Source: a virus | Taxonomy: Duplodnaviria; Caudoviricetes | Length of the DNA: 64,000 bases | Direction: 5' to 3' (one strand) | Virus record (IMG/VR): IMGVR_UViG_3300043104_000334 | In this document: piece after piece, positions 14,633 to 54,493 of the stretch | How positions within the stretch are numbered: the first letter of the stretch is position 1 | Layout: the number at the start of each line of letters is the position of its first letter | Notes under the pieces: model-generated | What the model saw: only the letters and a program-made list of their open reading frames with translations | Database searches by the model: none | Told to the model about the DNA's origin: nothing | Translations under genes and position numbers: made by a program

Positions 14633-15036
14633 TTCTGTACCTCCAAGTTATTATGCAGATCGTAATATATACCACCATGTGAATTCTCAAATTCATCATC
14701 TGTTATACCACACTCAAGCATTATACCAAAATACTCTTTTGCTATAGCTTTATGCTCTTTTGTTCCAAGCTCAGTACAAACAACCGACTTGCTTGTAAGG
14801 ATAAGCTTTGACACAGGAAACCCACCATCTTCTACCTCGGTTTTATAAGACTCGAAAGCGCCGGTTGAGACAAGTTTATTTCCTAAGGATTCAAGCTTTA
14901 TTTTGAATCGTTCAAACTTTGTTTTCGGGGCTATAACACCTGCAGCTGATACTAATGTCTCAACCATATTATATCTCTCCATTCTGTTGCAACTCTTTAT
15001 CATATCCAAAATAGAACCCATTGTCCATGCAAGCAT
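14629..15036 (-). CDS. Hypothetical protein, ATGA-coupled to the HEPN-like gene
   Basis: 4-bp overlap; true start probably internal (MVETL). Confidence 0.65.
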   Translation of the reverse strand: MLAWTMGSILDMIKSCNRMERYNMVETLVSAAGVIAPKTKFERFKIKLESLGNKLVSTGAFESYKTEVEDGGFPVSKLILTSKSVVCTELGTKEHKAIAKEYFGIMLECGITDDEFENSHGGIYYDLHNNLEVQK

Positions 15037-28848: not shown

Positions 28849-28869
28849 ATAGGGAGAAATTCTCCCTAT
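28849..28869 (-). terminator. Hairpin overlapping the VirB4-like stop codon
   Basis: ATAGGGAGA-AAT-TCTCCCTAT. Confidence 0.5.
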
Positions 28870-31042: not shown

Positions 31043-31657
31043 TCATAAAGCTTCATCAAATTCTTTAATGTCTAAGTTGCCAGCCAGAATATGATTTCCG
31101 CCGACCCAAGAACTTCCATGAACTTTCACGTTTTCAGATAAACGTGCAAACTCATGTATTTGGGCGTCTTCAGAAACTTCTGCATTGTCAGAAACCTTAG
31201 CATAATCGTACACCCATGCATAGCCGGATACCTTTGCATTACCGGATACTTTTGCATGTCCAAACACAGCAGCGCCATCTGACACGACTGCTGAACCATA
31301 GACATGTGCATCACCGTCAACCAGTGTCTTGTCTGTCACATGTGCAGAATCACTGATGTATGCACTTCCCCATACTCTTGCATCACCATCAACACATCCA
31401 CCGGAAATCATAGCTTTACCACGTACTTCCGCATTACCAGCAACTATAGCATTGTCAAATACTGTTGCAGACTCGTAGACCCAGCAGTTTCCACTCTGGC
31501 TGAGATTACTTGGCGACTCAATGTATCCGCCTATATCCCCATCCATAACGTCTTTGAAATTCTTTACCGCCTGAATCTGATAGAGCGTACGATTGCCAAT
31601 TGTCAAGGTTCTGTCCTTTAATAAAACGTACTTGATATCTCCACTAATTTTACTCAT
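31043..31657 (-). CDS. LbH hexapeptide-repeat protein 11 (no N-terminal tag)
   Basis: GDIGGYIES..NLSQSGNCW plus hexapeptides. Confidence 0.9.
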   Translation of the reverse strand: MSKISGDIKYVLLKDRTLTIGNRTLYQIQAVKNFKDVMDGDIGGYIESPSNLSQSGNCWVYESATVFDNAIVAGNAEVRGKAMISGGCVDGDARVWGSAYISDSAHVTDKTLVDGDAHVYGSAVVSDGAAVFGHAKVSGNAKVSGYAWVYDYAKVSDNAEVSEDAQIHEFARLSENVKVHGSSWVGGNHILAGNLDIKEFDEAL

Positions 31658-31779: not shown

Positions 31780-32772
31780 TTATTTCTTAAGTGTATTCTC
31801 GTAAAATGCCTTAGCTGCATCCTCATGCTGCTTATAACCACTGAAGCTGAAGAAATAGGATGGAATCATCTCGTATATCATTTCCTTTTGCCAAGGTGTA
31901 AGACTGCCAAAATTCTTGTCCTCGAATAGTCCATGTACAATTGTGCATACTACACAGTCGTAAGCTTTTCTATCAGGGTACTTATCGTACTTATGATACC
32001 GCTCACATATTGTCTCATACTTACACTGTTCAAAGTAAAGCTCATCGTAATCACAGGTATCACCAGGCATTTCAAGGACACAAGCACACTCAACGATATA
32101 TAGATTCTTATTATGCAATCCATTAATAAGCGATGCTACGTGTGCATCCTTATTTAAGGATAACAGTCTCTTCGCACGTTCCATTCCGTCCGAAAGTGTT
32201 CTAGGTGATACCAACTTGATAAGCTCACTTCTACCAATCAACTTGAGATAATTCATGAACGCTATATGCTCTTTAGTCACGTAATTTGATAGGTCATGCT
32301 CCGGAGCAACAATGATATATGTTGGATCATTAACTATCTTTGTAGAACCACTGGGCGGGTACGCTGTAAAGATAAGTTCTCTTGTACCAGTCATCTCTGG
32401 ACAATTGATAAGTCTTCCACCATTAATAAGCTCCACAACAGGATACTCCTCATAATTGTAAGCACCAATCGAGAAGTTTTCGTTTTTGTTAATGAACATA
32501 ACCTGTGTTCCATCGATAATGATCTTCTTAAGCTTGTTACTAGGGGACTCCGACCACCGACCATAAGACAATCCATCATTTGTCTCCGGTCCGATACAAG
32601 GCTGTCTGCTCTCTCCATATATTGTAAGTGCACCACCACCAAATATCTTAATGACTTCTGCATTACCAGTGTAAATTGGACCTACCTTCACTTGCTCTCC
32701 GAACGTATTATAAGTCATGACTTTACCGTCGATTGCACTGGCAGCACCTAAAAGTGTATTCATACTTGACAT
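31780..32772 (-). CDS. Non-LbH hypothetical protein carrying the array's N-terminal tag
   Basis: MSSMNTLLGAASAID then unrelated sequence. Confidence 0.8.
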   Translation of the reverse strand: MSSMNTLLGAASAIDGKVMTYNTFGEQVKVGPIYTGNAEVIKIFGGGALTIYGESRQPCIGPETNDGLSYGRWSESPSNKLKKIIIDGTQVMFINKNENFSIGAYNYEEYPVVELINGGRLINCPEMTGTRELIFTAYPPSGSTKIVNDPTYIIVAPEHDLSNYVTKEHIAFMNYLKLIGRSELIKLVSPRTLSDGMERAKRLLSLNKDAHVASLINGLHNKNLYIVECACVLEMPGDTCDYDELYFEQCKYETICERYHKYDKYPDRKAYDCVVCTIVHGLFEDKNFGSLTPWQKEMIYEMIPSYFFSFSGYKQHEDAAKAFYENTLKK

Positions 32773-32805
32773 AGCTGTTTACCTCCATTTAACTATAATC
32801 AATCC

Positions 32806-34284
32806 TTACTGTAATATCCAGTCAGCAATGTTATTACTCATGATCTGCATATTCCCAAGAAATACTGTGCTACCACCTTGGTCTGCATTCCCGTATATCT
32901 GAGCATTTTCGTATACATTAGTTTCGCCGTGTACTTTAGCGTTACCATAAACCTTAGCACCACCATCAATGACAGCATTATCGTAAACCTCAGCGCTACC
33001 AAATACTTCTGCGTTACCACTTATTTTAGCACTGCCATGAATTTTAGCAACACCACGGACTACAGCATCATCAGAAATCTCAGCGTTATCGAAAATATTA
33101 GCATTGTCAAAAATCCTAGCATTTCCACAAATTACGGCCTCACCTGTAACATTAGCTTTCCAAGACACTTCTGCATTATCAGTTATAACACATTCCCCAC
33201 CAATATATGCTTCACCAAATATTTTAGCTTCACCACTAATGCAAACCGCTCCACCAATGCTAGCCTTTTCATAGACCTTAGCATTGTTACACACATCACC
33301 ATTGTAGACGCTAGCATCATCATAAATCTTGGCATTATCATGTACTAATGAATCACCACTTATTTTAGCATTATTGTATATTATAGCATTGTCATATACC
33401 GCAGCATTGCCTTCAACAATAGCACGGCCATAAACCTTAGCCTTATTATATATCTTAGCTGACCGTTTTACTACAGTTTTGCCAAAGACTTGAGCATCAC
33501 CATACACCTCTGCTTGATCATAGACATGAGCATTATCAAAGACTTTAGCATTATCGTGAATATAAGCTTCATCAAATACTCTTGCGTCTCCAAAAACGCA
33601 TGCATTGCCATCCACCCAACAACTCCCCTCATGAGAAAGATTTTCCTCATTCTCTATCCATCCACCATGTCTTCCTTCTACAACCGCTAGTTTATTATCC
33701 CACGTCCTCCAGACGTTTTTTAATGCTCTTATTTCATGTAAGATATGACCATCTACCTCTTTAATTGCACCAGTGAATTCATATTTCTTAGTTACTTCAC
33801 CTCTTTTGAATGGAGTATCGTATACACTGTCTGTACCACACAGTAACAGTTTATCTACCCGAGCTCTACCATAAACTTGAGCTTGATCACAAACTTGAGC
33901 GCCATCATAGACTTTAGCATCATCATAGACTTTAGCCGAACCAAACACCCGTGCATTACCCCGGACTTGAGCATCACCATAAACTTGAGCATCATCTGAT
34001 ACTTGAGCGCTACCAGAAACCTTAGCATTACCATACACCATAGCATCATCAAATACCCAGCAAGTGCCTTCTTGAGCAAGATTGCCCTCGTGTTCTACCC
34101 AACCACCCATATCACCAATCTTAACTTCTCTGCCATTACAATTAAAATCCTTTAAAGATTTTATTCTGCTGCATATACGTTCAAGTGTCACACTCTTATA
34201 ATCAGATAATTCGTATTTCTTATTTACATCCTTATTAGTATCAACTTTACCTGCTGCCCTTAAGAGCATATTCATATCAGCCAT
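32806..34284 (-). CDS. LbH protein 10, two fused units (start revised to MADMN)
   Basis: Two KKYE..GGW..NL..EG.CW heads; GGAGG RBS. Confidence 0.9.
   Translation of the reverse strand: MADMNMLLRAAGKVDTNKDVNKKYELSDYKSVTLERICSRIKSLKDFNCNGREVKIGDMGGWVEHEGNLAQEGTCWVFDDAMVYGNAKVSGSAQVSDDAQVYGDAQVRGNARVFGSAKVYDDAKVYDGAQVCDQAQVYGRARVDKLLLCGTDSVYDTPFKRGEVTKKYEFTGAIKEVDGHILHEIRALKNVWRTWDNKLAVVEGRHGGWIENEENLSHEGSCWVDGNACVFGDARVFDEAYIHDNAKVFDNAHVYDQAEVYGDAQVFGKTVVKRSAKIYNKAKVYGRAIVEGNAAVYDNAIIYNNAKISGDSLVHDNAKIYDDASVYNGDVCNNAKVYEKASIGGAVCISGEAKIFGEAYIGGECVITDNAEVSWKANVTGEAVICGNARIFDNANIFDNAEISDDAVVRGVAKIHGSAKISGNAEVFGSAEVYDNAVIDGGAKVYGNAKVHGETNVYENAQIYGNADQGGSTVFLGNMQIMSNNIADWILQ
33971..34038. repeat. 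68-bp exact repeat, copy 1 (copy 2 at 42853..42920)
   Basis: gcatcaccataaacttgagcatcatctgatacttgagcgctaccagaaaccttagcattaccatacac is identical at both sites. Confidence 0.9.
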
Positions 34285-34288
34285 AAGT

Positions 34289-35014
34289 TTACCTCCATTT
34301 ATCATTTACATATTCACAAATATCAGTGTCACCATGAATACATTCAGGTTCATTAATTTTAACATTACCATGAACTCTAGCATTACCGCACACTAGTACC
34401 TGATTACCTATATCTGCGTTGTCATAGACCTGAGCCTTGTCACATACAGTACCAGTTACTATAGCATTGTTATAAATTTTAGCATCATCATGTACCTTAG
34501 CCATACCACGGACTTCAGTGCCACCATAGATTTTAACCCTGCCGCTAACTACTGCTGTTCCATGAACCTCAGCATTATCATAGATTTTGGCTTCCCCAAA
34601 AATCTTAGTAGAGTCATAAACCCGCGCAGAATTAAAGACTTGAGCATTACCGAAGACTCTAGCGTCATGACAAACTTGAGCATTATCATATATTTGAGCT
34701 TCATCAAATACCTCAGCATGTTCACTAATTTCAGCACCATCATAAACTCTAGCTTTACCCCAAACTTTAGCATTATCGAATACCCAACAATTCCCTTCCT
34801 GAGAAAGATTAGTTTCACTCTCAACAAATCCACCTAATTCACCGATTTTAATTTCTGAGTCCATACCCCATTTAATACTCTTTAAAGCCTTTATCCTATG
34901 AAGAGTATGACCAAACATTTCGCATGTTTTATCTGTAAGTTCATATTTCTTATCTGATTCCTTATTAGTATCAACCTTTCCAGCTGCTCTCAAGAGTTCG
35001 CTTATATCATTCAT
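34289..35014 (-). CDS. LbH protein 9 (start revised to MNDISE)
   Basis: Head domain plus hexapeptides. Confidence 0.9.
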   Translation of the reverse strand: MNDISELLRAAGKVDTNKESDKKYELTDKTCEMFGHTLHRIKALKSIKWGMDSEIKIGELGGFVESETNLSQEGNCWVFDNAKVWGKARVYDGAEISEHAEVFDEAQIYDNAQVCHDARVFGNAQVFNSARVYDSTKIFGEAKIYDNAEVHGTAVVSGRVKIYGGTEVRGMAKVHDDAKIYNNAIVTGTVCDKAQVYDNADIGNQVLVCGNARVHGNVKINEPECIHGDTDICEYVNDKWR

Positions 35015-35055
35015 AATTTTCTCCATCCTACTTCATAGATTTATTGCTGTTTTGG

Positions 35056-35080
35056 GGGGTTGGATATTGCACCCAACCCC
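35056..35080. terminator. GC-rich hairpin between LbH genes
   Basis: GGGGTTGG...CCAACCCC. Confidence 0.5.
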
Positions 35081-35095
35081 AACAGGTTTACTTAA

Positions 35096-35953
35096 TTAAC
35101 AAAGTTCATCTGACGCCATGATATGCATATCACCAGTTACAGAAGTTTTACCAGCAACATCTGAGCTACCACTGATAAATGCATGTCCATCGACATAAGC
35201 ATCTCCATGTACTGTGACAAATTTATTTATAATAGTATTACCCGTCACAATAGCTTTTTCATAGATACATGCACCTCCTGAAACCTTTGCATTACATCTC
35301 ACTTGAGCAGCATCATGTACACGTGCATCTCCGCATACTAATGCATTGTCAGCAATAATTGCTGCACCATAGACCTCAGCATTATCTTTAACTGTTGCAT
35401 GGTTGCAAAGAAAGGCTTTACCATATACCCGCGCGCTACCATCAACACTTGCATTGTCATTCATTTGGGCATCTTCAAATATAGCCGTTTCGCCACTGAC
35501 AATGCAATCATTATCAATAATAGCATTGTCATAAATCTGTGCATGACCTCTTACAATTACATGACCATCCACAGAAGCATCGCCATAAATCTTGGCTGCA
35601 CCACATATAACTGCATTGCCGTCGACCTTTGCATTGTCATAAACCCATGCATCATCCATGACAAGTGCATCACCAGCAATCAACGCGTCTCCAAATACGA
35701 AAGCTTTACCTGTCACCCAGCACGTTCCGTACTGTGGCAAGTTCTCTTCACTTTCAATAAATCCGCCAAGGTCTCCCGGATGCACATCTTTCCAGTGTGT
35801 CCTGAAGTACCCAAGAGCTTTGATACGATGAAGAATTATGCCCTTATAATTGTATGTTTCGTCAGTAAGTTCATATTTCTTACCTAACCCCTTAGTAGTA
35901 TCAATCTTCCCAGCTGCATCCAACAGTGTATTCATATTAACCGTATTATTCAT
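35096..35953 (-). CDS. LbH protein 8
   Basis: Head domain plus hexapeptides. Confidence 0.9.
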   Translation of the reverse strand: MNNTVNMNTLLDAAGKIDTTKGLGKKYELTDETYNYKGIILHRIKALGYFRTHWKDVHPGDLGGFIESEENLPQYGTCWVTGKAFVFGDALIAGDALVMDDAWVYDNAKVDGNAVICGAAKIYGDASVDGHVIVRGHAQIYDNAIIDNDCIVSGETAIFEDAQMNDNASVDGSARVYGKAFLCNHATVKDNAEVYGAAIIADNALVCGDARVHDAAQVRCNAKVSGGACIYEKAIVTGNTIINKFVTVHGDAYVDGHAFISGSSDVAGKTSVTGDMHIMASDELC

Positions 35954-35992
35954 ATCAAATATACTCCTTATCTCGATTTTTATTTTTAACTG

Positions 35993-36649
35993 TTACCTTT
36001 TACTAAACTGTAAGAATTTTTCATACTCCGACCTTTTCTTAGACTCAGCTATGTATGTTATATTCTCATACACCATGTTGTCATCGTAATCATTAGTATG
36101 CTCCATATCCATATTGACACCAAGACAACCAATGCCTCTCAGTATTGAATGACCGGTGACCTTTACGTTGCCACCAACAATGAAAGTTCCATGAATAGTA
36201 ATATTACCATTCACTTCAGCATTTCCTTTTACGCAGGTACAGATCTCAAGAACTGATGAACCAAAGACTTTAGCATTCTCATTAACACATGACTGCCCAC
36301 TCATCCATGTTTCACCACCAACAACCGCATTGTTGAATAGATGACTAAGACCACACATAAAAGCATTATCTTTGAGCACTGCACTATGTGTGACAAGTGA
36401 CTTTCCACACATCTTAGCATTGTTCATAACTTTAGCATGAGCAAACACTTGAGCATCCTCGTAAACTTCTGCATCATCATACACCCAGCAATTGTCTATT
36501 GTATCAAGATTATGTTCCGATTGAATATAGCCACCTAAGTCACCTTTTTTCACATCCCCAAAATCTTTTAACGCAACAATCCGATGTAGTACCAATCCGT
36601 TGGTAAGTACCTTGGTATTGTTTGTAAGTGCATATTTATCATTATTCAT
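35993..36649 (-). CDS. LbH protein 7 (start revised to MNNDK; no N-terminal tag)
   Basis: Head domain plus divergent hexapeptides. Confidence 0.85.
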   Translation of the reverse strand: MNNDKYALTNNTKVLTNGLVLHRIVALKDFGDVKKGDLGGYIQSEHNLDTIDNCWVYDDAEVYEDAQVFAHAKVMNNAKMCGKSLVTHSAVLKDNAFMCGLSHLFNNAVVGGETWMSGQSCVNENAKVFGSSVLEICTCVKGNAEVNGNITIHGTFIVGGNVKVTGHSILRGIGCLGVNMDMEHTNDYDDNMVYENITYIAESKKRSEYEKFLQFSKR

Positions 36650-36662
36650 ATTACTTGACCCC

Positions 36663-37205
36663 TTATCTACCCTTAGCATGTATGGAAGCATTACCACATA
36701 TACATGTTGAACTCACTACCTCAACATTATATATGGATGCATTTCCGTATACTCTTGCATCATCATGAACCTCTGCCCCACACACTATTGCATTGCAATA
36801 AACCATAGCATTATCATATACTTCTGCAAGACCAGATACTTCTGCAGCTCCAAATACCTTGGCATTATTATATACCTCAGAATTACCAGATATTTTAGCG
36901 TCTTCGTATACCATAGCGTCGTCACGTACACTGGCACCAAAGAAACACATAGCATTATCGAATATCCAGCAGTTACCATCCTGCGATAAATTTTCCTCAC
37001 ATTCAACAAACCCACCAAGGTCTCCAGCTTTAACAAATCTATCTCCACAATTAAAGCTTTTGAGTGCCTTGATTCTATGGAATGCATACTTCTTGTTATC
37101 CCCATACTCAATGGTTTCATCAGATAATACATATTTCTTATCTGTATTCTCTTTGTCACCATACACAGTATTTGCTGCATTCACAAGTGCTTTCATATCT
37201 GTCAT
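36663..37205 (-). CDS. LbH protein 6 (start revised to MTDMK)
   Basis: Head domain plus hexapeptides; AAAGGA RBS. Confidence 0.88.
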   Translation of the reverse strand: MTDMKALVNAANTVYGDKENTDKKYVLSDETIEYGDNKKYAFHRIKALKSFNCGDRFVKAGDLGGFVECEENLSQDGNCWIFDNAMCFFGASVRDDAMVYEDAKISGNSEVYNNAKVFGAAEVSGLAEVYDNAMVYCNAIVCGAEVHDDARVYGNASIYNVEVVSSTCICGNASIHAKGR

Positions 37206-37241
37206 AGTATCAATCCTTTCTACATCATACATTCAGTATAC

Positions 37242-38057
37242 TCATTCAAATATACCATTTTCAATATTGTCACTGTCACAAATAAATGCCGAGCCACGTA
37301 TTTCTGACCACCCACTTATTACTGCATCGTCACAAACTATAGCGCTTCCATGTACCCGTGCATTACCCAAAATCTTAGCATTATCGAATACTCTTGCATT
37401 CCCGTTAATTTTTGAGTTATTACATATCTGGGCATTCCCGCATACAAAAGCATGGTCACTGACTTCAACATTATCACGGACTTGCGCATGGTCATAAACA
37501 CATGCACCGCCTGTAACCCTAGCATGTCCATAAACTGTGGCATTGCCGAATATAATAGCATCATGCATAATGGTAGCATAGTCATAAACTCTGGCATTGT
37601 CAAATATCCTAACGTTGTCATATATCTCAGCACTACCACAAACAAAAGCGTCATCATATACTCTAACATTATTGTATAATGTAGCATCTTCATACACCTT
37701 TGCATTACCATAGACTCTGACAGAAGAATCAAGGTAAGCATTGTCAAGCACTCGTGCATTGTCATAAACGTATGCAAAGTCTCCAATATGTGCATCACCG
37801 TACACTTTGGCATTGCCATATATGCATGCTCCCTTATATGCCCAACAACTGCCATCCTGTGATAGGTTACTCTCAGACTCAAGCCATCCACCTAAATCTC
37901 CGGCTTTTATATCACCATATCTAGTACTGAATGAACGTAAAGCTTGTATACGATGAAGTACATGACCATTTACTTCTCTAACCTCATCTGTAAGCTTGTA
38001 CTTATCTTTAGGTTCACACATGCTAGCAGCTCTCAATATCTTATTTATATTAGTCAT
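37242..38057 (-). CDS. LbH protein 5
   Basis: Head domain plus hexapeptides. Confidence 0.9.
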   Translation of the reverse strand: MTNINKILRAASMCEPKDKYKLTDEVREVNGHVLHRIQALRSFSTRYGDIKAGDLGGWLESESNLSQDGSCWAYKGACIYGNAKVYGDAHIGDFAYVYDNARVLDNAYLDSSVRVYGNAKVYEDATLYNNVRVYDDAFVCGSAEIYDNVRIFDNARVYDYATIMHDAIIFGNATVYGHARVTGGACVYDHAQVRDNVEVSDHAFVCGNAQICNNSKINGNARVFDNAKILGNARVHGSAIVCDDAVISGWSEIRGSAFICDSDNIENGIFE

Positions 38058-38130
38058 AATTCACCTCACCTAATACTCTAACGATACCACAAACTATAGG
38101 AACATAGCTAAATCAGCATTTGAACACACT

Positions 38131-38766
38131 TTAGTATTGACATATTCTTGTACTGCCAAAGACCTGAGCAGAATCACCAACCTTAGCATTACCATATACG
38201 CTGGCACTAGCGCCAACCTTAGCGTTACCATACACTCTAGCATTATTAGAAATCTCAGCATTATTACTTACACTAGCATTGCCATATACTCTAGCATCAT
38301 CGAAGACTCTGGTATGGCCAGAGACCTTGGCATTACCAGATACCTTAGCATGACCAGATACCTTAGCACTGCCGAATACTTTGGCATGGCACGAGACTTG
38401 AGCATGACTGGTCACTATAGCATCACAGCTAACCCTAGCATTATCAAAGACTCTAGCCTCGTTATCAACCTTAGCATTATCACAGACTCTAGCCTCATCA
38501 AAAACCTTAGCGTCATCAAATACCCAGGCGGTACACAACTGAGCGAGATTAGTCTCGCTCTCTATCCAACCACCCAGGTCACCAGCCTTAACCTCTCTAT
38601 CTTGACATGGAAAGTCCATTAGAGCTTTTACTCTATGAAGAGTATGACCATCCATCTCAATAGTTTCATCAGTGAGTTCATACTTCTTCTTATCTGTTTC
38701 CTCAGTAGTATTAACCTTTTCAGCTGCTTTTCCAGCTGCTTTTAATAGTGTATTTACATTAGACAT
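38131..38766 (-). CDS. LbH protein 4
   Basis: Head domain plus hexapeptides. Confidence 0.9.
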   Translation of the reverse strand: MSNVNTLLKAAGKAAEKVNTTEETDKKKYELTDETIEMDGHTLHRVKALMDFPCQDREVKAGDLGGWIESETNLAQLCTAWVFDDAKVFDEARVCDNAKVDNEARVFDNARVSCDAIVTSHAQVSCHAKVFGSAKVSGHAKVSGNAKVSGHTRVFDDARVYGNASVSNNAEISNNARVYGNAKVGASASVYGNAKVGDSAQVFGSTRICQY

Positions 38767-38791
38767 AATTTCTTACCTCCATTTATTATAT

Positions 38792-39640
38792 TCAACTAGA
38801 GACTCTGGCATTTCCACAGATTACAGCATCACCATGGATGTGGGCTTTATCACACACTATAGTATTACCAGCGATTTTAACATTACCATGCACGAGAGCA
38901 TTATTACAGACCACAGCCTGATCATAGACCTGAGCACTGTCATAGACTTGAACCATGCCGGAAACTATTGTTTTACCATAGACTTGAGCATCACCAAGAA
39001 TACAAGCTTTGTCAGATACTCTTGCATAATCATAAACCTGTGCATTACCGTAAACCTGAACATTGTCAGAGACTTTAGCACTACCATAGACCTTAGCATT
39101 ACCATAAATCCGAACATTATCAGAAACTTTAGCATCACCATAGACTTTAGCGCTATCACCAATCAAAACGTTATCATAGACTTTAACAGAACCATAGACT
39201 ACAGCACGATCAAAGACCTTAGCAAAACAATAGATTTCTCCACCATAAACTCGAGCTTCACCAAAAACTTTAACATTACCATAGACTCTAGCATCACCAT
39301 GGACTTTAGCATCACCGTAAACTTTGGTATTGCCATAAATCATAGCTTCATCGAATACTTCTGCATTATCATCAATTTTGGCATTACCATAAACTTGAGC
39401 ATTGTCAAAAACCCAACAATTACCTTCATGAGACAGATTATCTTCATTCTCAATAAATCCGCCTAGGTCTCCAGCTTTGACTCCTCTGCCTTGACAATTA
39501 AAATCTTTTAAAGATTTTATTCTGTAGAGTGTGTTACCATCAATTTCTTTAGTCTCGTTAGTGAATTCATACTTTTTATCCGATTCCTCTTTAGGGGCAA
39601 CCCTTTCAGCTGCCCCTAAAAGTGTGTTGATATCTGCCAT
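38792..39640 (-). CDS. LbH protein 3
   Basis: Head domain plus hexapeptides. Confidence 0.9.
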   Translation of the reverse strand: MADINTLLGAAERVAPKEESDKKYEFTNETKEIDGNTLYRIKSLKDFNCQGRGVKAGDLGGFIENEDNLSHEGNCWVFDNAQVYGNAKIDDNAEVFDEAMIYGNTKVYGDAKVHGDARVYGNVKVFGEARVYGGEIYCFAKVFDRAVVYGSVKVYDNVLIGDSAKVYGDAKVSDNVRIYGNAKVYGSAKVSDNVQVYGNAQVYDYARVSDKACILGDAQVYGKTIVSGMVQVYDSAQVYDQAVVCNNALVHGNVKIAGNTIVCDKAHIHGDAVICGNARVSS

Positions 39641-39666
39641 AATATTTTATCTCCATATTTCTCAAA

Positions 39667-39680
39667 TATTAACATATTAA
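39667..39680. promoter_or_regulatory. 14-bp motif TATTAACATATTAA, copy 1 of 3 (also 43540..43553 and 61049..61062)
   Basis: Exact copies, all at or in intergenic gaps. Confidence 0.4.
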
Positions 39681-41431
39681 AAGACTTCAGTATACCCATA
39701 AACTTTGGCATGACCACCGACCGTGGCTTTGCCATAAACTTTAGCACTACCATAGACTATAGCATTTTTATATACCTGAGCATTGCCATAGACTTGAGCA
39801 TAGTTAGAGATATTTGTGTCACCATAGACTTGAGCATTATCAAAGACTTTAGCATATCCACTAACAATAGCATGCTCGAAAACTTGAGCATCTTTATAAA
39901 CTTCAGCATTACCACATATACAAGCATTGTCATAAACTGCAGCGTTATCATGTACTCGAGCTTTGCTACCGATTTTGGCATTACCAGAGACCTGAGCATG
40001 ATCAGATACTTCAGCATTATTATAAACCGAAGCATTACCATATACTTGAGCACTATCACATACTACGGTATTATCATATACCTCAGACTTACCATAAACT
40101 GTAGCGTATCCTCCCACCATAGCATCAAAAGCTATGCTGGCATCGTCATAGACCCTAGCACTACCACTAATAGCAGCATTATCATGTACACCAGCATTAC
40201 CAAAAATCTTGGCTTCGTCTATTACACAAGCACTACAAGTGACCGAAGCATTCCCGCTGACCGAAGCATTATCACATACTTTAGCATTGTCAAATATCCA
40301 GCAAGTGTCGTTGTGAGAAAGATTATCCTCGCTCTCAACAAAACCACCTAAATCACCAGCTTTGACTTCTTTACCTTGACACGTAAAGTTTTTCAGGGCT
40401 TTTATTCTGTGAAGTATGCACTCTTCAAAGTCAATTGTTTCATCTGTTAATTCGTACTTCTTACCCTGCTCTTCAGTAGTATTAGTATGCACTCCACCAT
40501 GTACTTTAGCATTACTGTAGACTTTGGCGTTACTACAGACACTAATACTACTATCATAGACTCGAGCGTTATCATAGACCTGTGCATCACCATAGACTTG
40601 TGCTTTACCGTAGACTTGAGCGTTATCAAAGAGCTGAGCGTTATCATACACCTCAGCATAATCACATACACTAGCCTTATTATAAATCTGAGCATTACCA
40701 TACACCTGAGCCGCATCGAATACAACAGCATAGTCATATACCTTAGCATTGCCGTATACCTTAGCATGACAACTAATATCAGCCTTGTCACAGATTTCAG
40801 CCATGTCATAGACTTCAGCATTTCCATAGACATGTGCATCGCCGTAGACCTGAGCATTGTCACTAACTTTAGCTGTATCATATATTCTAGCATTATCAGA
40901 TACTATAGCATTGCCACATACTAGTGCATTATCATAGATTTTAGCGGCGTCATAAACTTCGGCCTTATCACATACCCAAGCATCATCATAAATCTGAGCA
41001 TTATCATAAACTTCAGCATCATCGTAGACTTGAGCATTGCCATAGACTTGAGCATTACCACATACCTGAGCATCATCATATACTTCAGCCTCGTCATACA
41101 CCAGTGAATCACCATAGACCTGGGCATCTCCATATAGGCCAGCATTGTTACTTACCTTAGCATTACCGTATACCTTAGCATCATCAAATATCCAACAAGT
41201 GCCTTTTTGATCAAGATTAGTTTCACTTTCTACCCATCCGCCCAAACTACCGGCTTTGACCTCTCTCTCCTGACACTTAAATTCTTTTAATGCTCTTATT
41301 CTGTGAAGTGTATGACCCTCTGCCTCAATTGTTTCATCTGTAAGTTCATACTTCTTCTCATCCTTATCCGTTACTTGTTTGGTAGGGACAGCCTTTCCAG
41401 CTGCTCCCAGTAACATATCAAGATTACTCAT
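39677..41431 (-). CDS. LbH protein 2, two fused units
   Basis: Second head after ...HTNTTEEQGKKYEL. Confidence 0.9.
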   Translation of the reverse strand: MSNLDMLLGAAGKAVPTKQVTDKDEKKYELTDETIEAEGHTLHRIRALKEFKCQEREVKAGSLGGWVESETNLDQKGTCWIFDDAKVYGNAKVSNNAGLYGDAQVYGDSLVYDEAEVYDDAQVCGNAQVYGNAQVYDDAEVYDNAQIYDDAWVCDKAEVYDAAKIYDNALVCGNAIVSDNARIYDTAKVSDNAQVYGDAHVYGNAEVYDMAEICDKADISCHAKVYGNAKVYDYAVVFDAAQVYGNAQIYNKASVCDYAEVYDNAQLFDNAQVYGKAQVYGDAQVYDNARVYDSSISVCSNAKVYSNAKVHGGVHTNTTEEQGKKYELTDETIDFEECILHRIKALKNFTCQGKEVKAGDLGGFVESEDNLSHNDTCWIFDNAKVCDNASVSGNASVTCSACVIDEAKIFGNAGVHDNAAISGSARVYDDASIAFDAMVGGYATVYGKSEVYDNTVVCDSAQVYGNASVYNNAEVSDHAQVSGNAKIGSKARVHDNAAVYDNACICGNAEVYKDAQVFEHAIVSGYAKVFDNAQVYGDTNISNYAQVYGNAQVYKNAIVYGSAKVYGKATVGGHAKVYGYTEVF

Positions 41432-41462
41432 AATTACTACCTCTCTTTAAATTATGTTTTAT

Positions 41463-43394
41463 TTACTCGTAGACTTCAGTATCACCATAGATTTCAGTAT
41501 TACAAACTCTAGCATTACCATGGACTTTAGCTTTGCCATAAACCTTTGCATTCTCGAAAACCGTGGCCCTACCATAAATTTGAGCATCACCACATACTAA
41601 TACATTTTCACAAACTTTAGCATGCTCATAAACGCGTGCATTGTAGCATACTTTAGCATCGTTGCATACTATAGCATTACCATATACCTGAGCGTAATGA
41701 TATACCTGAGCATCATTATATATTTTAGCATAGTCATAGATTTTAGCATAGTCATAGACTTTTGCACTACCATAGACTTCTGCATGGTCATATACTGTAG
41801 TCTTGTCATCTAGTGCAGCACTACCATAAACTTTAGCACTACCATAAACCTCAACGTCTCCACGCACTTCAGCATTACCATAAACTTGAGCAGTATCCAG
41901 AACTTGAGCATCACCATATACCTTTGCATCACCATACACTTCGGCACCATTATACACTCGAGCAGTACCGTAGATTTCCGCACAACCATAAACACTGGCG
42001 TAGCAATCTACTCTAGCCTCACCAAAGACCTCAGCATTATCAAATACTTGTGCTTTATCAAATACCCAGCAAGTATCTTTGTGAGAAAGATTCTTATCTT
42101 CCTCTACAAAACCGCCTAAGTCACCAATTTTAACATCTCTGCCTTGACAATCAAAGTCCTTTAAAGATTTTATTCTGTGAAGAGTGTGACCATCTATCAT
42201 GATTATCTCATCAGTAAATTCATACTTCTTACCGACTATTTCTGTGTTAGCATCTACCGCTCTTAATGTCTCAAGTTCACGACTAGTACTAATCTCCTCA
42301 TCGAAGACTAGTAAATCACCACAAACGTGAGTATGATAGTTAATCAAGGAACGGCCACAGACTTTAGCATTACCACTGACTTGAGCATCACTCAATAGTA
42401 AAGCCTTACCAAAGACCATACCGTAGCCACTTACTTGGGCATCATCCCTGATTTCGGCCTTGTCATAAACATGGGCACGGTCAAAGACCTTAGCACACCC
42501 ATGAATATTAGCATTTTTATATACATGAGCAGTACCATAAACTTGAGCGTCGTCATAAACTTGAGCATCCCCACTAATCATGCTAAAGTCATAGACTTTA
42601 GCCATGCCATAAACTTGAGCATTATCATAAACCTGAGCATTACCGTAAACCTGAGCTTTATTAAAGATATTAGCGGTGCCGTACACTCTAGCCATAGCGT
42701 AAAGTCTGGATATACCATGGATAATAGCGTCAGCAAAAACTGCTGCTTCATCATAGACTGAAGCATTGTCGTAAACTTTAGCGCTACCGAAAATACTAGC
42801 CTCCCCATAGATTCGTGCATCATCATATACTTGAGCATTTTCAAATATATGCGCATCACCATAAACTTGAGCATCATCTGATACTTGAGCGCTACCAGAA
42901 ACCTTAGCATTACCATACACTTTAGCGCCCATATAAACTTTTGCTTTACCCCAGATATTTGCACTCTCGTAGATTTCGGCCCAATCACAAACCGCAGCAT
43001 TGTCATGAACAGTAGCTTTATCAAATACTTTAACTGACCCGCCTACTTTAGCCCTGTCGAAGACTTGAGCATTATCAGAAACTCTAGCGTCATCATACAC
43101 TTTAGCATCGCCGAAGACTTGTGCTTCATCAAATACCCAGCAAGCATCTTCTTGTGATAGGTTACTCTCACTTTCAACCCAACCACCTAAGTCACCAACT
43201 CTTACATCTCTACCCTGACAAGTAAAATTCTTTAGAGATTTTATTCTATGGACAATATGGCTACCTGCTATGAGAACGACACGGTTATCTACTCTTGTTG
43301 TCTCGTCCGTTAATTCATATTTTTTCTCTACTTCCTTATTGCTAGTGTCAGAACATCTAAATGCTGCCCCTAGCAGTTCATCTAAACTACTCAT
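41463..43394 (-). CDS. LbH protein 1, two fused units
   Basis: Second head after ...LETLRAVDANTEIVGKKYEF. Confidence 0.9.
   Translation of the reverse strand: MSSLDELLGAAFRCSDTSNKEVEKKYELTDETTRVDNRVVLIAGSHIVHRIKSLKNFTCQGRDVRVGDLGGWVESESNLSQEDACWVFDEAQVFGDAKVYDDARVSDNAQVFDRAKVGGSVKVFDKATVHDNAAVCDWAEIYESANIWGKAKVYMGAKVYGNAKVSGSAQVSDDAQVYGDAHIFENAQVYDDARIYGEASIFGSAKVYDNASVYDEAAVFADAIIHGISRLYAMARVYGTANIFNKAQVYGNAQVYDNAQVYGMAKVYDFSMISGDAQVYDDAQVYGTAHVYKNANIHGCAKVFDRAHVYDKAEIRDDAQVSGYGMVFGKALLLSDAQVSGNAKVCGRSLINYHTHVCGDLLVFDEEISTSRELETLRAVDANTEIVGKKYEFTDEIIMIDGHTLHRIKSLKDFDCQGRDVKIGDLGGFVEEDKNLSHKDTCWVFDKAQVFDNAEVFGEARVDCYASVYGCAEIYGTARVYNGAEVYGDAKVYGDAQVLDTAQVYGNAEVRGDVEVYGSAKVYGSAALDDKTTVYDHAEVYGSAKVYDYAKIYDYAKIYNDAQVYHYAQVYGNAIVCNDAKVCYNARVYEHAKVCENVLVCGDAQIYGRATVFENAKVYGKAKVHGNARVCNTEIYGDTEVYE
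42853..42920. repeat. 68-bp exact repeat, copy 2
   Basis: Identical to 33971..34038. Confidence 0.9.
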
Positions 43395-43693: not shown

Positions 43694-44818
43694 TCATTTT
43701 CTTTCAAGTAACGCAATAATGTTCTTTACAATACTCATAGAAGAATACTCACTTATTCTCGCAGATGTATCAAGCTTTTCAAAATCTTTAATGTACTTAA
43801 TAAACTGCGTTGTATTCTCATAAGAAATGATTCTTCCAAGCGGAATATCCGCGGGTGCATCTTTTAAATCGGATACTGTGTACATAACTTCTACGTTTGG
43901 TCCAACAACATGAGGCACTGAGTATCCACCTCTGTCAAGAATTATCAGAATAGAGATATTAGACGAATTCTTTAAGACATCCTGCATAATGTTAGGCTGC
44001 ATACCAAGCATAAGAATATCACCTTGTATTACGTCACGCTCGATAAGATTGTGATGCGGAACAAGGTTGGGATAAAGCGGAATCTTACCATCTGCATAAT
44101 ACCCCTCAATAACAAGTATTCTTGTAGGCATCGCGTAAAGAGTCTTCATAATCTCTTTCAGATAGTACACAAGTGTATCTGTATACTGAACTCTTGAAAT
44201 CTCCTTTATGTAAAGAATCTTATCGTAAGAATTCTTGTCAACCTGAAACAGTTTATTCTTATCAACACCTGCATTATACTGATAATTGATACGGGATATA
44301 AGTGCATGAAACTTTGACTGATAGGAAAGCTTATTTGCACTCTCCAGCTGGATTGTGTAGTCCTTATCATCAATCTCCGCTTGCATACCCTCTACAATAG
44401 ACTGAAGTCGCGACACCTGATTTGAGTAAGCAAGCATCTGCTTAAAGTAATCATTGTTCCTATCGGTGAGATACTTGAGTGTATCCATGAATTCCTTTTC
44501 ATGTGCACCAAGCAGCATTATGATTTCACTAACATCCCGACACTCAGCAATCTTCTGAACCATTTTGTCCTGAGTAAGTACCTCATCCTCTAAATCAAGC
44601 TCGATTACAAGATTATAGTTAATCCTCCGGACATTTTCAATGTACTTCATAAGACCAGTAGGCGTGAAGAACTCATGCGCGAAATCCTGCCGAATAACAA
44701 CTTTATTAGAGGATAAATTATCTACAGCAATTTTGTCCAACTCAGACTTGGTATGAATAAATTTATATCCATCAACCTTGTCTTTCGTTTCCTCTACTAA
44801 TGATGCTAAATACATCAT
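43694..44818 (-). CDS. Hypothetical protein with central coiled coil and possible degenerate P-loop fold
   Basis: Heptad region QVSRLQSIVEGMQAEI; alpha/beta C-terminus. Confidence 0.65.
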   Translation of the reverse strand: MMYLASLVEETKDKVDGYKFIHTKSELDKIAVDNLSSNKVVIRQDFAHEFFTPTGLMKYIENVRRINYNLVIELDLEDEVLTQDKMVQKIAECRDVSEIIMLLGAHEKEFMDTLKYLTDRNNDYFKQMLAYSNQVSRLQSIVEGMQAEIDDKDYTIQLESANKLSYQSKFHALISRINYQYNAGVDKNKLFQVDKNSYDKILYIKEISRVQYTDTLVYYLKEIMKTLYAMPTRILVIEGYYADGKIPLYPNLVPHHNLIERDVIQGDILMLGMQPNIMQDVLKNSSNISILIILDRGGYSVPHVVGPNVEVMYTVSDLKDAPADIPLGRIISYENTTQFIKYIKDFEKLDTSARISEYSSMSIVKNIIALLERK

Positions 44819-45998
44819 AGACGATTTCCTCCCCTCTCAAGTTAATTCCATTTGCTTCAACGACTTCCGCAATAAGGTTACTCTTATCAAGAACGACCCG
44901 CACGATATCAGTCATCTCAGTTGATGTAATGTTACATTCATTCTTCTTATTCATACGCATACCAACCAAGATTACCTTTGTTGGGTCAACATCATAAAGG
45001 AGTGAGTTGCAGCATTCAAGAACATCCGGTACTGTATCAGCACACACAATACTATAGTATGAACCATAGGGAGTCTGCGTAAAATCACACTCCTTTATGA
45101 AGTAATCAACATAGCCGAGTAAGTTGCTGCTGAGAATGTCGAATACAAAATCATAGTTAAATATAATTCTGTTCTTGCATCCAATAACAATAAGCCGGGC
45201 TGAGCTTGCTTTAATATCCTGCACGATTTTTGTAGGGTTAACCATGAACTCCTCAAGGTCAATAAACTCATAATCAACTGATGACTTAAGCACCATATCA
45301 GTCAACCGGTGATATTGAATGTCACTCTCAACAATAAGCGTTTTTCCTGTCAATGCAAGATACTGTGCCTCAATGAATGTAAAGAGCGTACGCTCAACTG
45401 ACTGCTTCCCAACAACATAGTATGTGCTAGACAAAATGTCTACGCTAGGAATTTGAATTTCCGGCTCTGCCATTTGTGGTATAGCAGACAGCTGTTCTTC
45501 ATCTGTTTCATAATCATTCTCATCAGTCTCGTACTTCTTAATATTTTGTGCAACTGCATATTCAGAAGCACGCATACGATAAGTGATTACTTCAGTCTCC
45601 GACTCATCAGCAATACGTGCTGCTCCTGATACAATATCAGAAATAAATCTTGACGATAAATCTCCCTGATAGAATGTGATGGTTGTAATACCATTATCTT
45701 CAAGGAATGAACTTACGGCATCACTTGACGTTGTCTCACTAATGAGATAAATACAACTTCCAGTAAGCTTCAAAAATGGCGCTGAAAGCAAATCCAGAAG
45801 TCTCGCCATATTTGTACTTGTAAAGGGAAGTTCCTTTTCTGAGATAACGATAGAACCAAGTACAATAGGTGTGGTGTTAATATACTCCTCGAACTTTATG
45901 AAGTCGGGAAATATACTTATATCATATACCGGAGTGACACTCTTTATTGAGTCATCAATGTTACCGGCAACAATAAACATTCTTTCCTTAGAAATCAT
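44772..45998 (-). CDS. Putative degenerate MinD/ParA (CpaE/TadZ-like) protein
   Basis: VVGKQSVERT..AQYLA..GKTLIVESD mimics GKGGVGKT..A..LA..GKVLLVD.D without the catalytic Lys. Confidence 0.45.
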   Translation of the reverse strand: MISKERMFIVAGNIDDSIKSVTPVYDISIFPDFIKFEEYINTTPIVLGSIVISEKELPFTSTNMARLLDLLSAPFLKLTGSCIYLISETTSSDAVSSFLEDNGITTITFYQGDLSSRFISDIVSGAARIADESETEVITYRMRASEYAVAQNIKKYETDENDYETDEEQLSAIPQMAEPEIQIPSVDILSSTYYVVGKQSVERTLFTFIEAQYLALTGKTLIVESDIQYHRLTDMVLKSSVDYEFIDLEEFMVNPTKIVQDIKASSARLIVIGCKNRIIFNYDFVFDILSSNLLGYVDYFIKECDFTQTPYGSYYSIVCADTVPDVLECCNSLLYDVDPTKVILVGMRMNKKNECNITSTEMTDIVRVVLDKSNLIAEVVEANGINLRGEEIVYDVFSIISRGNERQG

Positions 45999-52801: not shown

Positions 52802-52846
52802 TATTCCTTACCTCTCTATTGTAAATATTTAAATAGTTACAATAAT

Positions 52847-54462: not shown

Positions 54463-54493
54463 TCTTCTACCTCCATTATGTCTACACTAACCA

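What the first reader, a model, noticed from the sequence alone, without database searches (positions are those of the whole stretch)
31780..43394. Portable N-terminal peptide tag (LLxAAxK[VIA]) on ten array proteins
Seen: N-termini MSSLDELLGAAFR, MSNLDMLLGAAGKAV, MADINTLLGAAERV, MSNVNTLLKAAGKA, MTNINKILRAASM, MTDMKALVNAANTV, MNTLLDAAGKIDT, MNDISELLRAAGKVDT, MADMNMLLRAAGKVDT (nine LbH genes) and MSSMNTLLGAASAID (unrelated protein). In the LbH proteins the tag precedes a variable linker. Two LbH genes (31043, 35993) lack it, so it is separable from the fold. Inference: a short amphipathic helix acting as a sorting signal. Candidates are a T4SS substrate signal for delivery into recipients, a cargo-loading peptide analogous to encapsulin/microcompartment/capsid-targeting peptides, or a shared docking/degradation tag.
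Basis: partly seen in the sequence, partly recalled or inferred. Interest (0 to 1): 0.85.

Follow-up and report, generated by a model that had tools for sequence, protein, structure and literature searches.

The report
Portable N-terminal address tag on cargo
A giant uncultured gut or rumen DNA element puts the same 12-residue peptide at the very front of many unrelated proteins, several of them toxin-like enzymes; it is most likely an address label read by one of the element's own machines, but which machine is not shown.

Summary
Ten genes at 31780-43394 start with M-x-[ND]-[LIM]-[ND]-x-L-L-x-A-A-[GSN]-K. Nine are YdcK-type beta-solenoid (LbH) paralogs and one is an unrelated 330-aa protein.

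- **Not part of the fold.** None of the top 120 of 4,215 database homologs has the tag. Phage and plasmid homologs and the YdcK crystal sequence lack it too. Second units inside two-unit proteins also lack it.
- **Selected as a peptide.** Leu-Leu and Ala-Ala are about as conserved as the fold's own best motif. The linker is not conserved, and the Leu codons differ.
- **Portable.** Elsewhere in this element the tag heads a Fic protein, a 246-aa protein and two more LbH proteins. In relatives it heads an AbiEii toxin-like protein in the same slot next to the VirB4-like ATPase.
- **Lineage-specific.** A 216-kb relative has no LbH genes, yet about eight unrelated proteins carry its own version, AI-x-A-M-S-G.

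The sorting-signal idea is plausible. The destination (a T4SS- or FtsK-type motor, a particle, or an AAA+ handle) is unresolved, because the one complex prediction never ran.

This scan had already noted the same tag elsewhere in this genome. It has also noted different shared leaders in huge phages.

The parts
41463..43394 (-). Two-unit LbH protein, 643 aa. Tag MSSLDELLGAAFR at residues 1-13 (43356-43394).
   Evidence: The second head, at residue 389, has no tag.
39677..41431 (-). Two-unit LbH protein, 584 aa. Tag MSNLDMLLGAAGK (41393-41431).
   Evidence: The internal head at residue 324 is untagged.
38792..39640 (-). LbH protein, 282 aa. Tag MADINTLLGAAER.
   Evidence: (phrog_7964 and phrog_5070 match only from residue 9-21 onwards).
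38131..38766 (-). LbH protein, 211 aa. Tag MSNVNTLLKAAGK. This is the protein that was modelled.
   Evidence: AF2 model with pLDDT 93.9: helix 3-19, coil 20-28, then head and beta-helix. PDB YdcK 2f9c, E 5e-18, aligned from residue 43.
37242..38057 (-). LbH protein, 271 aa. Tag MTNINKILRAASM.
36663..37205 (-). LbH protein, 180 aa from the inner start. Tag MTDMKALVNAANT, the weakest copy.
   Evidence: (23.2 bits). The start could instead be 37232.
35993..36649 (-). LbH-like protein without a tag. It starts MNNDKYAL.
   Evidence: No Pfam hit at E 0.01, but the head motif is present.
35096..35953 (-). LbH protein, 285 aa. Tag (MNNTVN)MNTLLDAAGK.
34289..35014 (-). LbH protein, 241 aa. Tag MNDISELLRAAGK.
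32806..34284 (-). Two-unit LbH protein, 492 aa. Tag MADMNMLLRAAGK.
   Evidence: The internal head at residue 166 is untagged.
31780..32772 (-). Non-LbH protein, 330 aa, no known family. Tag MSSMNTLLGAASA.
   Evidence: No hit in Pfam, PHROG or NCBIfam. Homologs at 26-39% identity lack the tag, and the 49% homolog has a decayed one. It scores 22.1 bits with the LbH-only matrix.
31043..31657 (-). LbH protein, 204 aa, without a tag.
   Evidence: Its counterpart in L002 has a decayed N-terminal extension.
12956..13333 (-). Candidate extra tagged protein, 125 aa, no family. Starts MSEELLKAAQS.
   Evidence: perfect ribosome-binding site; 7.6 bits, p about 0.004. A weak case.
14629..14982 (-). Candidate extra tagged protein, 117 aa. 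Contains (MERYN)MVETLVSAAGV.
   Evidence: 10.0 bits, p about 0.002. A weak case with an uncertain start.
28866..30950 (-). VirB4-like ATPase immediately downstream of the cargo slot. One candidate part of the machine that reads the tag.
   Evidence: PF19044 at E 3e-7. NCBIfam VirB4 models match at E 1e-11 to 2e-4, all far below their cut-offs. The family is rare: 181 representatives among 1.84 billion proteins.
43694..46906 (-). Three conserved genes upstream of the slot: a 303-aa two-TM protein, a 408-aa protein and a 374-aa protein.
   Evidence: Same order in L002, L012 and L064. No family hits.
61241..62119 (-). Classic-clade AAA ATPase, 292 aa. A candidate unfoldase or handle reader.
   Evidence: PF00004 at E 7e-22. 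Nearest NCBIfam models are IteA, PAN, Cdc48 and FtsH, all below cut-off. In the MAG relative a tagged gene abuts its ortholog.

Best explanation
The peptide is a self-contained module: a short N-terminal helix (M-x-[ND]-hydrophobic-[ND]-x-L-L-x-A-A-small-K) followed by a 10-25 residue flexible polar linker. The element family attaches it to the front of a changing set of cytoplasmically made cargo proteins. The cargo includes LbH/YdcK-like proteins, toxin-type enzymes (Fic, AbiEii, and in a relative a kinase-like P-loop protein and a weakly HipA-like protein) and proteins of unknown family.

I read it as an address label that docks cargo onto one element-encoded partner, and that partner changes together with the tag between lineages. 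The most likely partner is part of an envelope translocation machine. Candidates are the T4SS-like block (giant membrane proteins, VirB4-like ATPase, wall hydrolases) in which the main cargo slot sits, or the membrane FtsK/EssC-like motor. On this reading, tagged proteins are exported or delivered into another cell, N-terminus first.

Shown: the tag is real, N-terminal only, separable, portable, selected at the peptide level and lineage-specific. Inferred: that it is a docking signal. Speculative: which machine reads it, and that the cargo leaves the cell.
For: 1. **Separable from the fold.**
   - None of the top 120 of 4,215 LbH homologs has it; they start M(x0-3)KKYEL.
   - The S. salivarius plasmid array and three phage homologs lack it.
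   - PDB YdcK aligns only from residue 43.
   - Internal heads of four two-unit proteins lack it.
2. **Selected as a peptide.** Among 11 LbH paralogs M is 11/11, LL 10/11 and AA 11/11. The linker is 3-6/11 and KKYELTDE 9-11/11. The Leu-Leu codons differ in nearly every copy.
3. **Portable.**
   - It heads the 330-aa protein, whose 26-39% homologs lack it.
   - It heads Fic (PF02661), a 246-aa protein and two distant LbH genes of the same element.
   - It heads AbiEii (PF08843) in five relatives and in L002.
4. **Context.** In three lineages the tagged genes fill a variable slot between the 374-aa gene and the VirB4-like gene. The slot is empty in L064.
5. **Lineage-specific version.** The 216-kb MAG relative has no LbH genes. 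About eight unrelated proteins there start with [DE]-A-I-x-[AK]-M-[SAV]-[GP]. My regex gives 6 hits in 66,000 residues, 5 of them N-terminal.
6. **Free extension.** In the AbiEii model the tag is a helix at residues 2-12 followed by 26 residues of low-confidence coil before the domain. In the LbH model it is a helix at 3-19 followed by coil.
7. **Cargo looks cytoplasmic.** There is no signal peptide. The array proteins are acidic and have 2-18 Cys each. AbiEii is followed by an untagged small partner gene, the toxin-then-immunity order.
8. **No virion genes recognised.** Three Pfam models for the HK97 capsid, large terminase and portal find nothing significant in the complete relative.
Against: - No receptor was identified, and no binding test was obtained.
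- Known T4SS signals are C-terminal. Known T7SSb signals are long helical LXG or WXG domains (abstracts of PMC13560087 and PMC10801868), not 12-residue N-terminal peptides.
- The WXG100-like pair next to the FtsK-type motor carries no tag.
- Many tagged genes (Fic, the 246-aa protein, the second LbH pair, most MAG cases) are far from any secretion gene.
- The VirB4-like assignment rests on weak matches far below the curated cut-offs.
- Toxin-like cargo with a neighbouring partner gene could equally be ordinary addiction or defence modules that act inside the cell.
- The LbH model gives the tag helix pLDDT 89, so docking of the helix back onto its own protein is not excluded. I could not inspect the coordinates.
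Confidence: 0.42

Rival explanations
1. Particle-loading tag. The element is an unrecognised virus or makes some other container, and the peptide loads cargo into it. This would work as the T4 capsid targeting sequence does for internal proteins, so that the cargo travels with the DNA.
For: - The design matches the T4 CTS: a short N-terminal peptide on diverse, fast-changing proteins that have only the tag in common (PMC3012670).
- The hydrophobic spacing at positions 4, 7 and 8 resembles MKTYQEFIAE (my own knowledge of that sequence).
- The element has phage-like replication and transcription genes: RNA polymerase, DNA polymerase A, DnaB, ligase and peptide deformylase.
- A VirB4-like or FtsK-HerA-type ATPase could be a packaging motor.
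- This scan has several analogous tags in huge phages.
Against: - No capsid, portal or terminase was found with PF05065, PF03237 or PF04860 in the complete relative. The only hit is 15.9 bits.
- The window proteins tested gave no structural PHROG hits.
- Neither the VirB4-like protein nor the tag pattern was found in IMG/VR.
- The tag shows no conserved protease cutting motif: the residues after A-A vary.
- The element is rich in lipoproteins, giant surface proteins and pilus-like genes, which points to a cell-bound lifestyle.
Confidence: 0.15
2. Intracellular control handle. The tag is read inside the producing cell by a common regulator, for example the element's classic-clade AAA ATPase, a protease adaptor or a shared inhibitor or chaperone. 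All tagged toxins and LbH proteins would then be unfolded, degraded, held inactive or released together.
For: - A strictly terminal tag followed by an unstructured linker is what AAA+ unfoldases need in order to engage a substrate (established knowledge of ClpX, PAN and Mpa).
- The element encodes a 292-aa PF00004 AAA protein in the same long operon.
- In the MAG relative a tagged 350-aa gene abuts that AAA gene with a 4-base gap.
- The tagged cargo includes TA-toxin-type enzymes whose activity must be controlled.
Against: - In toxin-antitoxin systems the unstable partner is usually the antitoxin, yet here the toxin-like protein is tagged and its partner is not.
- Only one tagged gene lies next to the AAA gene.
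- The main array sits inside the secretion-like block.
- Nothing links LbH proteins to regulated turnover.
Confidence: 0.2
3. No common function. The motif is an inherited N-terminal extension of one paralog family, and the few matches in other proteins come from chance or from recombination at gene 5' ends.
For: - Nine of the ten window copies are paralogs.
- Three genes, including the 330-aa gene, share a similar ribosome-binding-site context, AAATGGAGGTAA. This fits 5'-end exchange.
- Some extra cases are weak: Fic at 5.3 bits and the 125-aa protein at 7.6 bits.
Against: - The core is as conserved as the fold's best motif while the linker drifts, and synonymous sites are scrambled.
- The tag is kept on at least four unrelated families and in several lineages.
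- A distant relative keeps a diverged version on about eight unrelated proteins and has no LbH gene at all.
- It never occurs at internal heads.
Confidence: 0.05
4. A nucleic-acid or translation feature. The conserved 5' coding region serves RNA structure, translation initiation or co-regulation rather than the peptide.
For: It always lies at the start codon. Several copies have similar upstream sequence.
Against: Amino acids are conserved while codons are not: Leu-Leu is written CTG CTA, TTA CTG, CTT TTA, CTA TTA, ATA TTG, CTC TTG and so on.
Confidence: 0.03

Closest known systems
Capsid targeting sequence (CTS) of phage T4 internal proteins IPI, IPII, IPIII and Alt
   Same: A roughly 10-residue N-terminal peptide is the only shared feature of diverse, fast-evolving proteins, and it can be moved to foreign proteins (PMC3012670). 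The hydrophobic spacing is similar.
   Different: The sequences are not similar. The conserved L/I-x-E cutting site of the T4 prohead protease is absent. No capsid, scaffold or prohead protease was recognised in this element.
Encapsulation peptides of bacterial microcompartments (PduD, PduP, EutC type) and encapsulin cargo-loading peptides
   Same: The architecture is the same: a short amphipathic N-terminal helix, then a poorly conserved flexible linker, then any folded enzyme (my own knowledge of these systems). Compare.
   Different: The precomputed Pfam lists of about 175 kb of the element show no shell protein (BMC, EutN or encapsulin families). The cargo is toxin-like rather than metabolic.
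N-terminal packing signals of payloads of extracellular contractile injection systems (Photorhabdus PVC), loaded with help of an AAA+ ATPase
   Same: An N-terminal, unstructured or helical leader marks unrelated toxin payloads encoded next to the machine, and an AAA ATPase takes part (my own knowledge, not checked in papers here).
   Different: Those leaders are about 50 residues long and are not a fixed motif. No sheath, tube or baseplate genes were seen here.
T7SSb substrates with N-terminal LXG domains and helical partner proteins
   Same: They are N-terminal, helical, attached to polymorphic toxin domains and followed by immunity genes. They occur in Bacillota, and the motor is an FtsK-family ATPase with WXG100-like neighbours (abstracts of PMC13560087, PMC10801868, PMC11217815).
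   Different: LXG domains are about 200 residues long and need partner proteins to form the signal. The tag here is about 12 residues. The motor lacks several EssC features, and an earlier follow-up judged it not to be a true EssC.
Type IV secretion and conjugation substrate signals
   Same: The cargo genes sit inside a T4SS-like gene block, and Fic-type effectors are classic T4SS cargo in other bacteria.
   Different: Known signals are C-terminal or internal and are read by a VirD4 coupling protein. No canonical VirD4 or relaxase was seen, and the VirB4 assignment is weak.

Membership tests
YdcK-type beta-solenoid / LbH (PF18836) - the cargo fold, not the tag | YdcK solenoid repeats and hexapeptide repeats above the Pfam cut-off | tested here: met
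   PF18836 scores 40-115 bits (cut-off 30) in 10 of the 12 array LbH genes. The gene at 36663 scores 28.7 and the gene at 35993 gets no hit. PDB YdcK 2f9c matches at E 5e-18.
YdcK-type beta-solenoid / LbH (PF18836) | The tag belongs to the family's N-terminal head | tested here: not met
   None of 120 top homologs and no phage, plasmid or PDB member has it.
T4-type capsid targeting sequence | Short N-terminal peptide shared by otherwise unrelated proteins | tested here: met
T4-type capsid targeting sequence | Prohead-protease cleavage motif (L/I-x-E) ending the tag | tested here: not met
   The residues after A-A are G/S/N/E/F/T/K/Q followed often by K. No fixed Glu is present.
T4-type capsid targeting sequence | Capsid, scaffold, portal and terminase encoded by the same genome | tested here: not met
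   PF05065 and PF03237 find nothing, and PF04860 scores 15.9 bits in the complete relative. There are no structural PHROG hits. Divergent folds cannot be excluded.
T7SSb LXG-type substrates | N-terminal helical LXG domain of about 200 residues | tested here: not met
   The tag helix is 11-17 residues long and is followed by coil. No LXG Pfam hit was found.
T7SSb LXG-type substrates | FtsK/EssC-family motor and WXG100-like proteins in the same genome | tested here: inconclusive
   A 1189-aa membrane protein with PF01580 is followed by 99- and 125-aa helical proteins. Membership in EssC was doubted by an earlier follow-up.
Sec or Tat signal peptide | Hydrophobic core of 10 or more residues (plus a twin-arginine motif for Tat) and a signal-peptidase site | tested here: not met
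   Mean hydrophobicity is 0.02-0.41 on the Eisenberg scale, with only 3-4 hydrophobic residues and no RR.
Double-glycine leader of peptidase-containing ABC transporters | Leader ending in GG/GA/GS, with hydrophobic residues at -4, -7 and -12, and a C39-ABC transporter gene | tested here: not met
   Counting back from the conserved A-G, the hydrophobic residues fall at -5, -6 and -9. No C39 or ABC exporter appears in the Pfam lists of about 175 kb of the element. The consensus itself is from my own knowledge.
Type IV secretion substrate | C-terminal or internal translocation signal read by a VirD4 coupling protein | not testable with these tools
   The signal here is N-terminal and no canonical VirD4 was seen. 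Only gene neighbourhood supports a link.

The most novel reading that the evidence does not exclude
A family of 150-290 kb non-viral elements of Lachnospiraceae uses a previously unknown 12-residue N-terminal signal. The signal co-evolves with its receptor between lineages. It feeds a swappable arsenal of TA-toxin-type enzymes (Fic, AbiEii, kinase-like) and beta-solenoid proteins into an atypical T4SS/FtsK-type envelope machine, which delivers them into neighbouring cells. That would be a new class of secretion signal and effector system in Gram-positive bacteria.
Probability: 0.22. Interest if true: 0.85.

Novelty: new variant of a known kind. Interest (0 to 1): 0.68.

Why it matters
Short portable address peptides are rare and useful. 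Each known one (the T4 CTS, microcompartment and encapsulin peptides, PVC payload leaders) revealed how a machine chooses its cargo and then became an engineering handle.

This tag marks roughly 7-10% of the genes of an uncatalogued family of giant gut and rumen elements. It therefore gives a direct list of the element's probable effectors, including toxin-type enzymes and a large array of beta-solenoid proteins of unknown role. Two lineage-specific versions exist, which offers a built-in specificity test for finding the receptor.

If the receptor turns out to be the T4SS-like or FtsK-type machine, this would be a new kind of secretion signal for Bacillota.

Tried and rejected
1. **Complex prediction.** I sent complex prediction (FtsK/EssC-like P0304 residues 250-1189 with tag residues 1-40) ten times. 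The machine was unreachable every time, so there is no result of any kind.
2. **Tree of LbH head units**. My motif extraction caught only 15 units and every branch was unresolved, so I dropped it. I cannot say whether the two untagged LbH genes lost the tag or never had it.
3. **IMG/VR scan for DNA encoding N-T-L-L-x-A-A-G-K**. It gave 33 hits, none N-terminal and all unrelated.
4. **The 'NINTLL' stretch** at the N-terminus of the 303-aa two-TM protein looked like the tag. It is conserved as NINTLMNVD in the MAG relative, whose tag is different. I reject it as coincidence.
5. **Other signal types.** I rejected a double-glycine leader, a Sec or Tat signal and a membrane-anchoring helix on spacing and hydrophobicity. 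I rejected the Fic inhibitory helix because the [ST]-x-x-x-E-[GN] motif is absent from the Fic tag (the motif is from my own knowledge).
6. **Related-element searches.**
   - VirB4-like in viral contigs: none.
   - VirB4-like in phages: none.
   - VirB4-like in plasmids: only a 25%-identity Bacteroidota TraG.
   - Other Lachnospiraceae genomes: 0 of 400 carry the FtsK-type motor.
7. **Papers on YdcK function**: nothing relevant.
8. **The 330-aa protein.** A sequence search of solved structures was not attempted for it. The Atlas model is poor, with only faint beta-helix resemblance.

Full report
**What is there.** The window is coded almost entirely on the minus strand. Between 31043 and 43394 lie thirteen genes. 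Twelve are paralogs with a conserved head (KKYELTDE...HRIKAL...GDLGGW.E.E.NLS..G.CWV) followed by hexapeptide repeats. Ten of these reach the Pfam cut-off of the YdcK beta-solenoid family (PF18836), with weaker Hexapep and Bactofilin matches. One of them matches the crystal sequence of YdcK (2f9c/2pig) at E 5e-18. The thirteenth gene (31780-32772, 330 aa) has no hit in Pfam, PHROGs or NCBIfam.

The genes at 31043 and 35993 do not.

**Is it more than chance?** A matrix built from the ten tags scores them at 23-38 bits, while the best of 38,891 other six-frame positions scores 14 bits. That test is circular and the LbH copies are paralogs, so I rebuilt the matrix from the nine LbH tags alone. 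I then scored the N-termini of 158 genes (46,195 residues) from the window and from other parts of the same element. Controls were 5,093 internal blocks of the same proteins.

| Protein | Score (bits) | Empirical p |
|---|---|---|
| 330-aa protein | 22.1 (internal maximum 16.0) | beyond all internal blocks |
| 246-aa protein | 14.1 | 8e-4 |
| 117-aa protein | 10.0 | 2e-3 |
| 125-aa protein | 7.6 | 4e-3 |
| Fic protein | 5.3 | 9e-3 |

That is five non-LbH N-termini at p below 0.01, where about 1.4 are expected.

**Is it part of the LbH fold?** No.
- Of 4,215 database homologs at E below 1e-10, none of the 120 best has the motif. They start M, then zero to three residues, then KKYEL.
- The five LbH genes of the S. 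salivarius linear plasmid pIKMIN-B502 and the homologs in Bacteroides phage BF10P2, Streptococcus phage Javan246 and a Liberibacter phage also start directly at the head.
- Four element proteins contain two head-plus-solenoid units. In all four the second head is preceded by unrelated sequence.

So the tag occurs once per polypeptide, at the N-terminus only.

**Is it under selection as a peptide?**
- Among eleven LbH paralogs that are 40-68% identical to each other, M1 is 11/11, L-L 10/11 and A-A 11/11. The following linker is 3-6/11, and the head motif KKYELTDE is 9-11/11.
- The two Leu codons differ in nearly every copy. This rules out recent gene conversion and an RNA-level explanation.
- Structure prediction gives a helix at residues 3-19, coil to residue 28, then the head and beta-helix (pLDDT 93.9 overall, 89 and 78 for the first two ten-residue blocks).
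- For a tagged AbiEii protein it gives a helix at 2-12, 26 residues of low-confidence coil, and the domain from residue 39.
- The tag is weakly amphipathic and far too polar for a Sec signal or a membrane anchor.

**Is it portable?** Yes, by three lines of evidence.

1. *The 330-aa family.* Its 49% homolog has a decayed version (MNVNDMLNSFG). The homologs at 39%, 31% and 26% identity have unrelated N-termini.
2. *Relatives of the element.* These have the same gene order: giant membrane protein, 303-aa two-TM protein, 408-aa protein, 374-aa protein, a slot, then the VirB4-like ATPase.
   - In the 186-189 kb relatives (VirB4-like protein 84-86% identical) the slot holds no LbH genes. It holds an AbiEii-family protein (PF08843, E 4e-16) that starts MANLNALLGAAKKG, followed by an untagged 148-aa gene.
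   - In L002 the slot holds a tagged AbiEii (GTG start, MNDKINKMLEAAQ), its partner, a tagged LbH (MSDISMLLDAANK) and the 325-aa homolog.
3. *Elsewhere in the same element.* Walking along it by exact-protein look-ups found a Fic protein (PF02661; MSGELFNAAN), a 246-aa protein (MNMNQLLSAAT) and two more LbH genes (MGLDKLLSAAS and ..GLDSLMEAAG) about 30-37 kb beyond the window end. This confirms part of an earlier first-reader note.

**A second version of the tag.** The only genome-collection hit for the VirB4-like protein is a 215,949-bp contig binned with a Lachnospiraceae MAG, at 53% identity. It is coded on one strand like the window.
- It has the same core block, but the cargo slot is empty.
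- It has no LbH gene.
- About eight unrelated proteins start with [DE]-A-I-x-[AK]-M-[SAV]-[GP] within their first 7-20 residues. A regex for it hits six times in 66,000 residues, five of them N-terminal.
- They include a cytidylate-kinase-like P-loop protein, a weakly HipA-like protein and a DUF1232 protein.

The pattern (two hydrophobic residues, x, Ala, Ala or Met, small, Gly or Lys) is the same as L-L-x-A-A-G-K. I read the two as diverged versions of one system, which implies an element-encoded reader that changes with the tag.

**What reads it?** This is not shown.

*Points towards a translocation machine:*
- The main cargo slot lies inside a T4SS-like block in three lineages.
- The cargo is made without signal peptides.
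- The array proteins are acidic and have 2-18 Cys each, as expected for proteins that work in a cytoplasm.
- Several cargo domains are toxin or effector types.
- AbiEii is followed by an untagged partner gene, as in secreted toxin-immunity pairs.
- The element also has a membrane FtsK/EssC-like motor with two WXG100-like neighbours, with homologs on more than 100 contigs of 140-290 kb. In the MAG relative, small FtsK-like ATPases lie beside three tagged genes.

*Points against:*
- Known T4SS and T7SS signals look different.
- The WXG-like proteins are untagged.
- Many tagged genes lie far from secretion genes.
- The VirB4 assignment is weak.

*Rivals:*
- A particle-loading tag of the T4 CTS type (PMC3012670). 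It lacks any recognised capsid gene and any cutting motif.
- A handle for the element's classic AAA ATPase or another intracellular regulator.

**Novelty and verdict.** Short portable N-terminal address peptides are a known kind of thing. This one has a new sequence, a new carrier and a new cargo set. The carrier is an uncatalogued family of giant, apparently non-viral Lachnospiraceae elements with no close relative in the phage or plasmid collections. The cargo is LbH arrays plus TA-toxin-type enzymes. The tag also has two lineage-specific versions. Its destination is open.

The same tag was already noted by this scan elsewhere in this genome, and analogous but unrelated tags were noted in huge phages.

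Noticed in passing
window 31043-43394; L012:8574-9914; L002:7693-11507; L064:8859-10001: The interval between the conserved 374-aa gene and the VirB4-like gene is a variable cargo slot. It holds 13 genes here, a tagged AbiEii plus its partner in 85%-identity relatives, a mixed set in L002, and nothing in the 53%-identity MAG relative.
   Followed up: partly
G001:C5 (L065-L075), reverse-strand coordinates 139, 10464, 11346, 14275, 20088, 29705, 31285, 82184: A distant relative carries its own N-terminal tag, [DE]-A-I-x-[AK]-M-[SAV]-[GP], on about eight unrelated proteins. These include a cytidylate-kinase-like protein and a weakly HipA-like protein.
   Followed up: partly
G001:C5 reverse-strand 1512-2486, 12179-13090, 28975-29685; L076:21941-22756: Small single-domain FtsK-like ATPases (236-324 aa, PF01580) lie next to tagged genes. 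In the window's lineage one is followed by a NERD protein starting MSSLDNSVNNLLGRM, which looks like a tag with a 3-residue insertion.
   Followed up: no
window 32700-32772 and L059:9182-9250: The 330-aa protein and the Fic protein share more than the tag. After A-A both continue with I-x-x-K-V-x-T-Y-[ND], which suggests a second tag-plus-linker class or an exchange of 5' ends.
   Followed up: no
L055:429-1757 (inside the 653-aa gene L057:7618-9579): An internal Met preceded by a perfect AGGAGG site opens METVTELLKAAETAG. It follows a long acidic low-complexity stretch and may give a shorter tagged isoform.
   Followed up: no
window 503-1492 and 1513-2673 (minus strand): Two neighbouring paralogs share a C-terminal motif, GS-x-NPLIRAA-x-KAD-x-KIK, about 15 residues from their ends. 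It resembles the tag core but sits at the other terminus.
   Followed up: no
L060 (S. salivarius plasmid pIKMIN-B502, record 52326-57256): This cultured linear plasmid has an array of five LbH paralogs without the tag. Two of them and a neighbouring non-LbH gene share a different N-terminal extension, MANE..KQ..GKLE.
   Followed up: no
window 45995-46906; L012:5272-6186; L064:6793-7701: The 303-aa two-TM protein upstream of the slot has a conserved N-terminus, (R/K)FKGK-x-NINTL(L/M)N(I/V)D. The FKG recalls VirB3 proteins (my own knowledge), and the NINTLL resemblance to the tag is coincidental.
   Followed up: partly
window 20406-21425 (minus), residue about 110: The best internal match to the tag matrix (16 bits) is TDLNELLAAVQTAQAAG, inside one of the membrane-anchored wall-hydrolase cassette proteins.
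   Followed up: no
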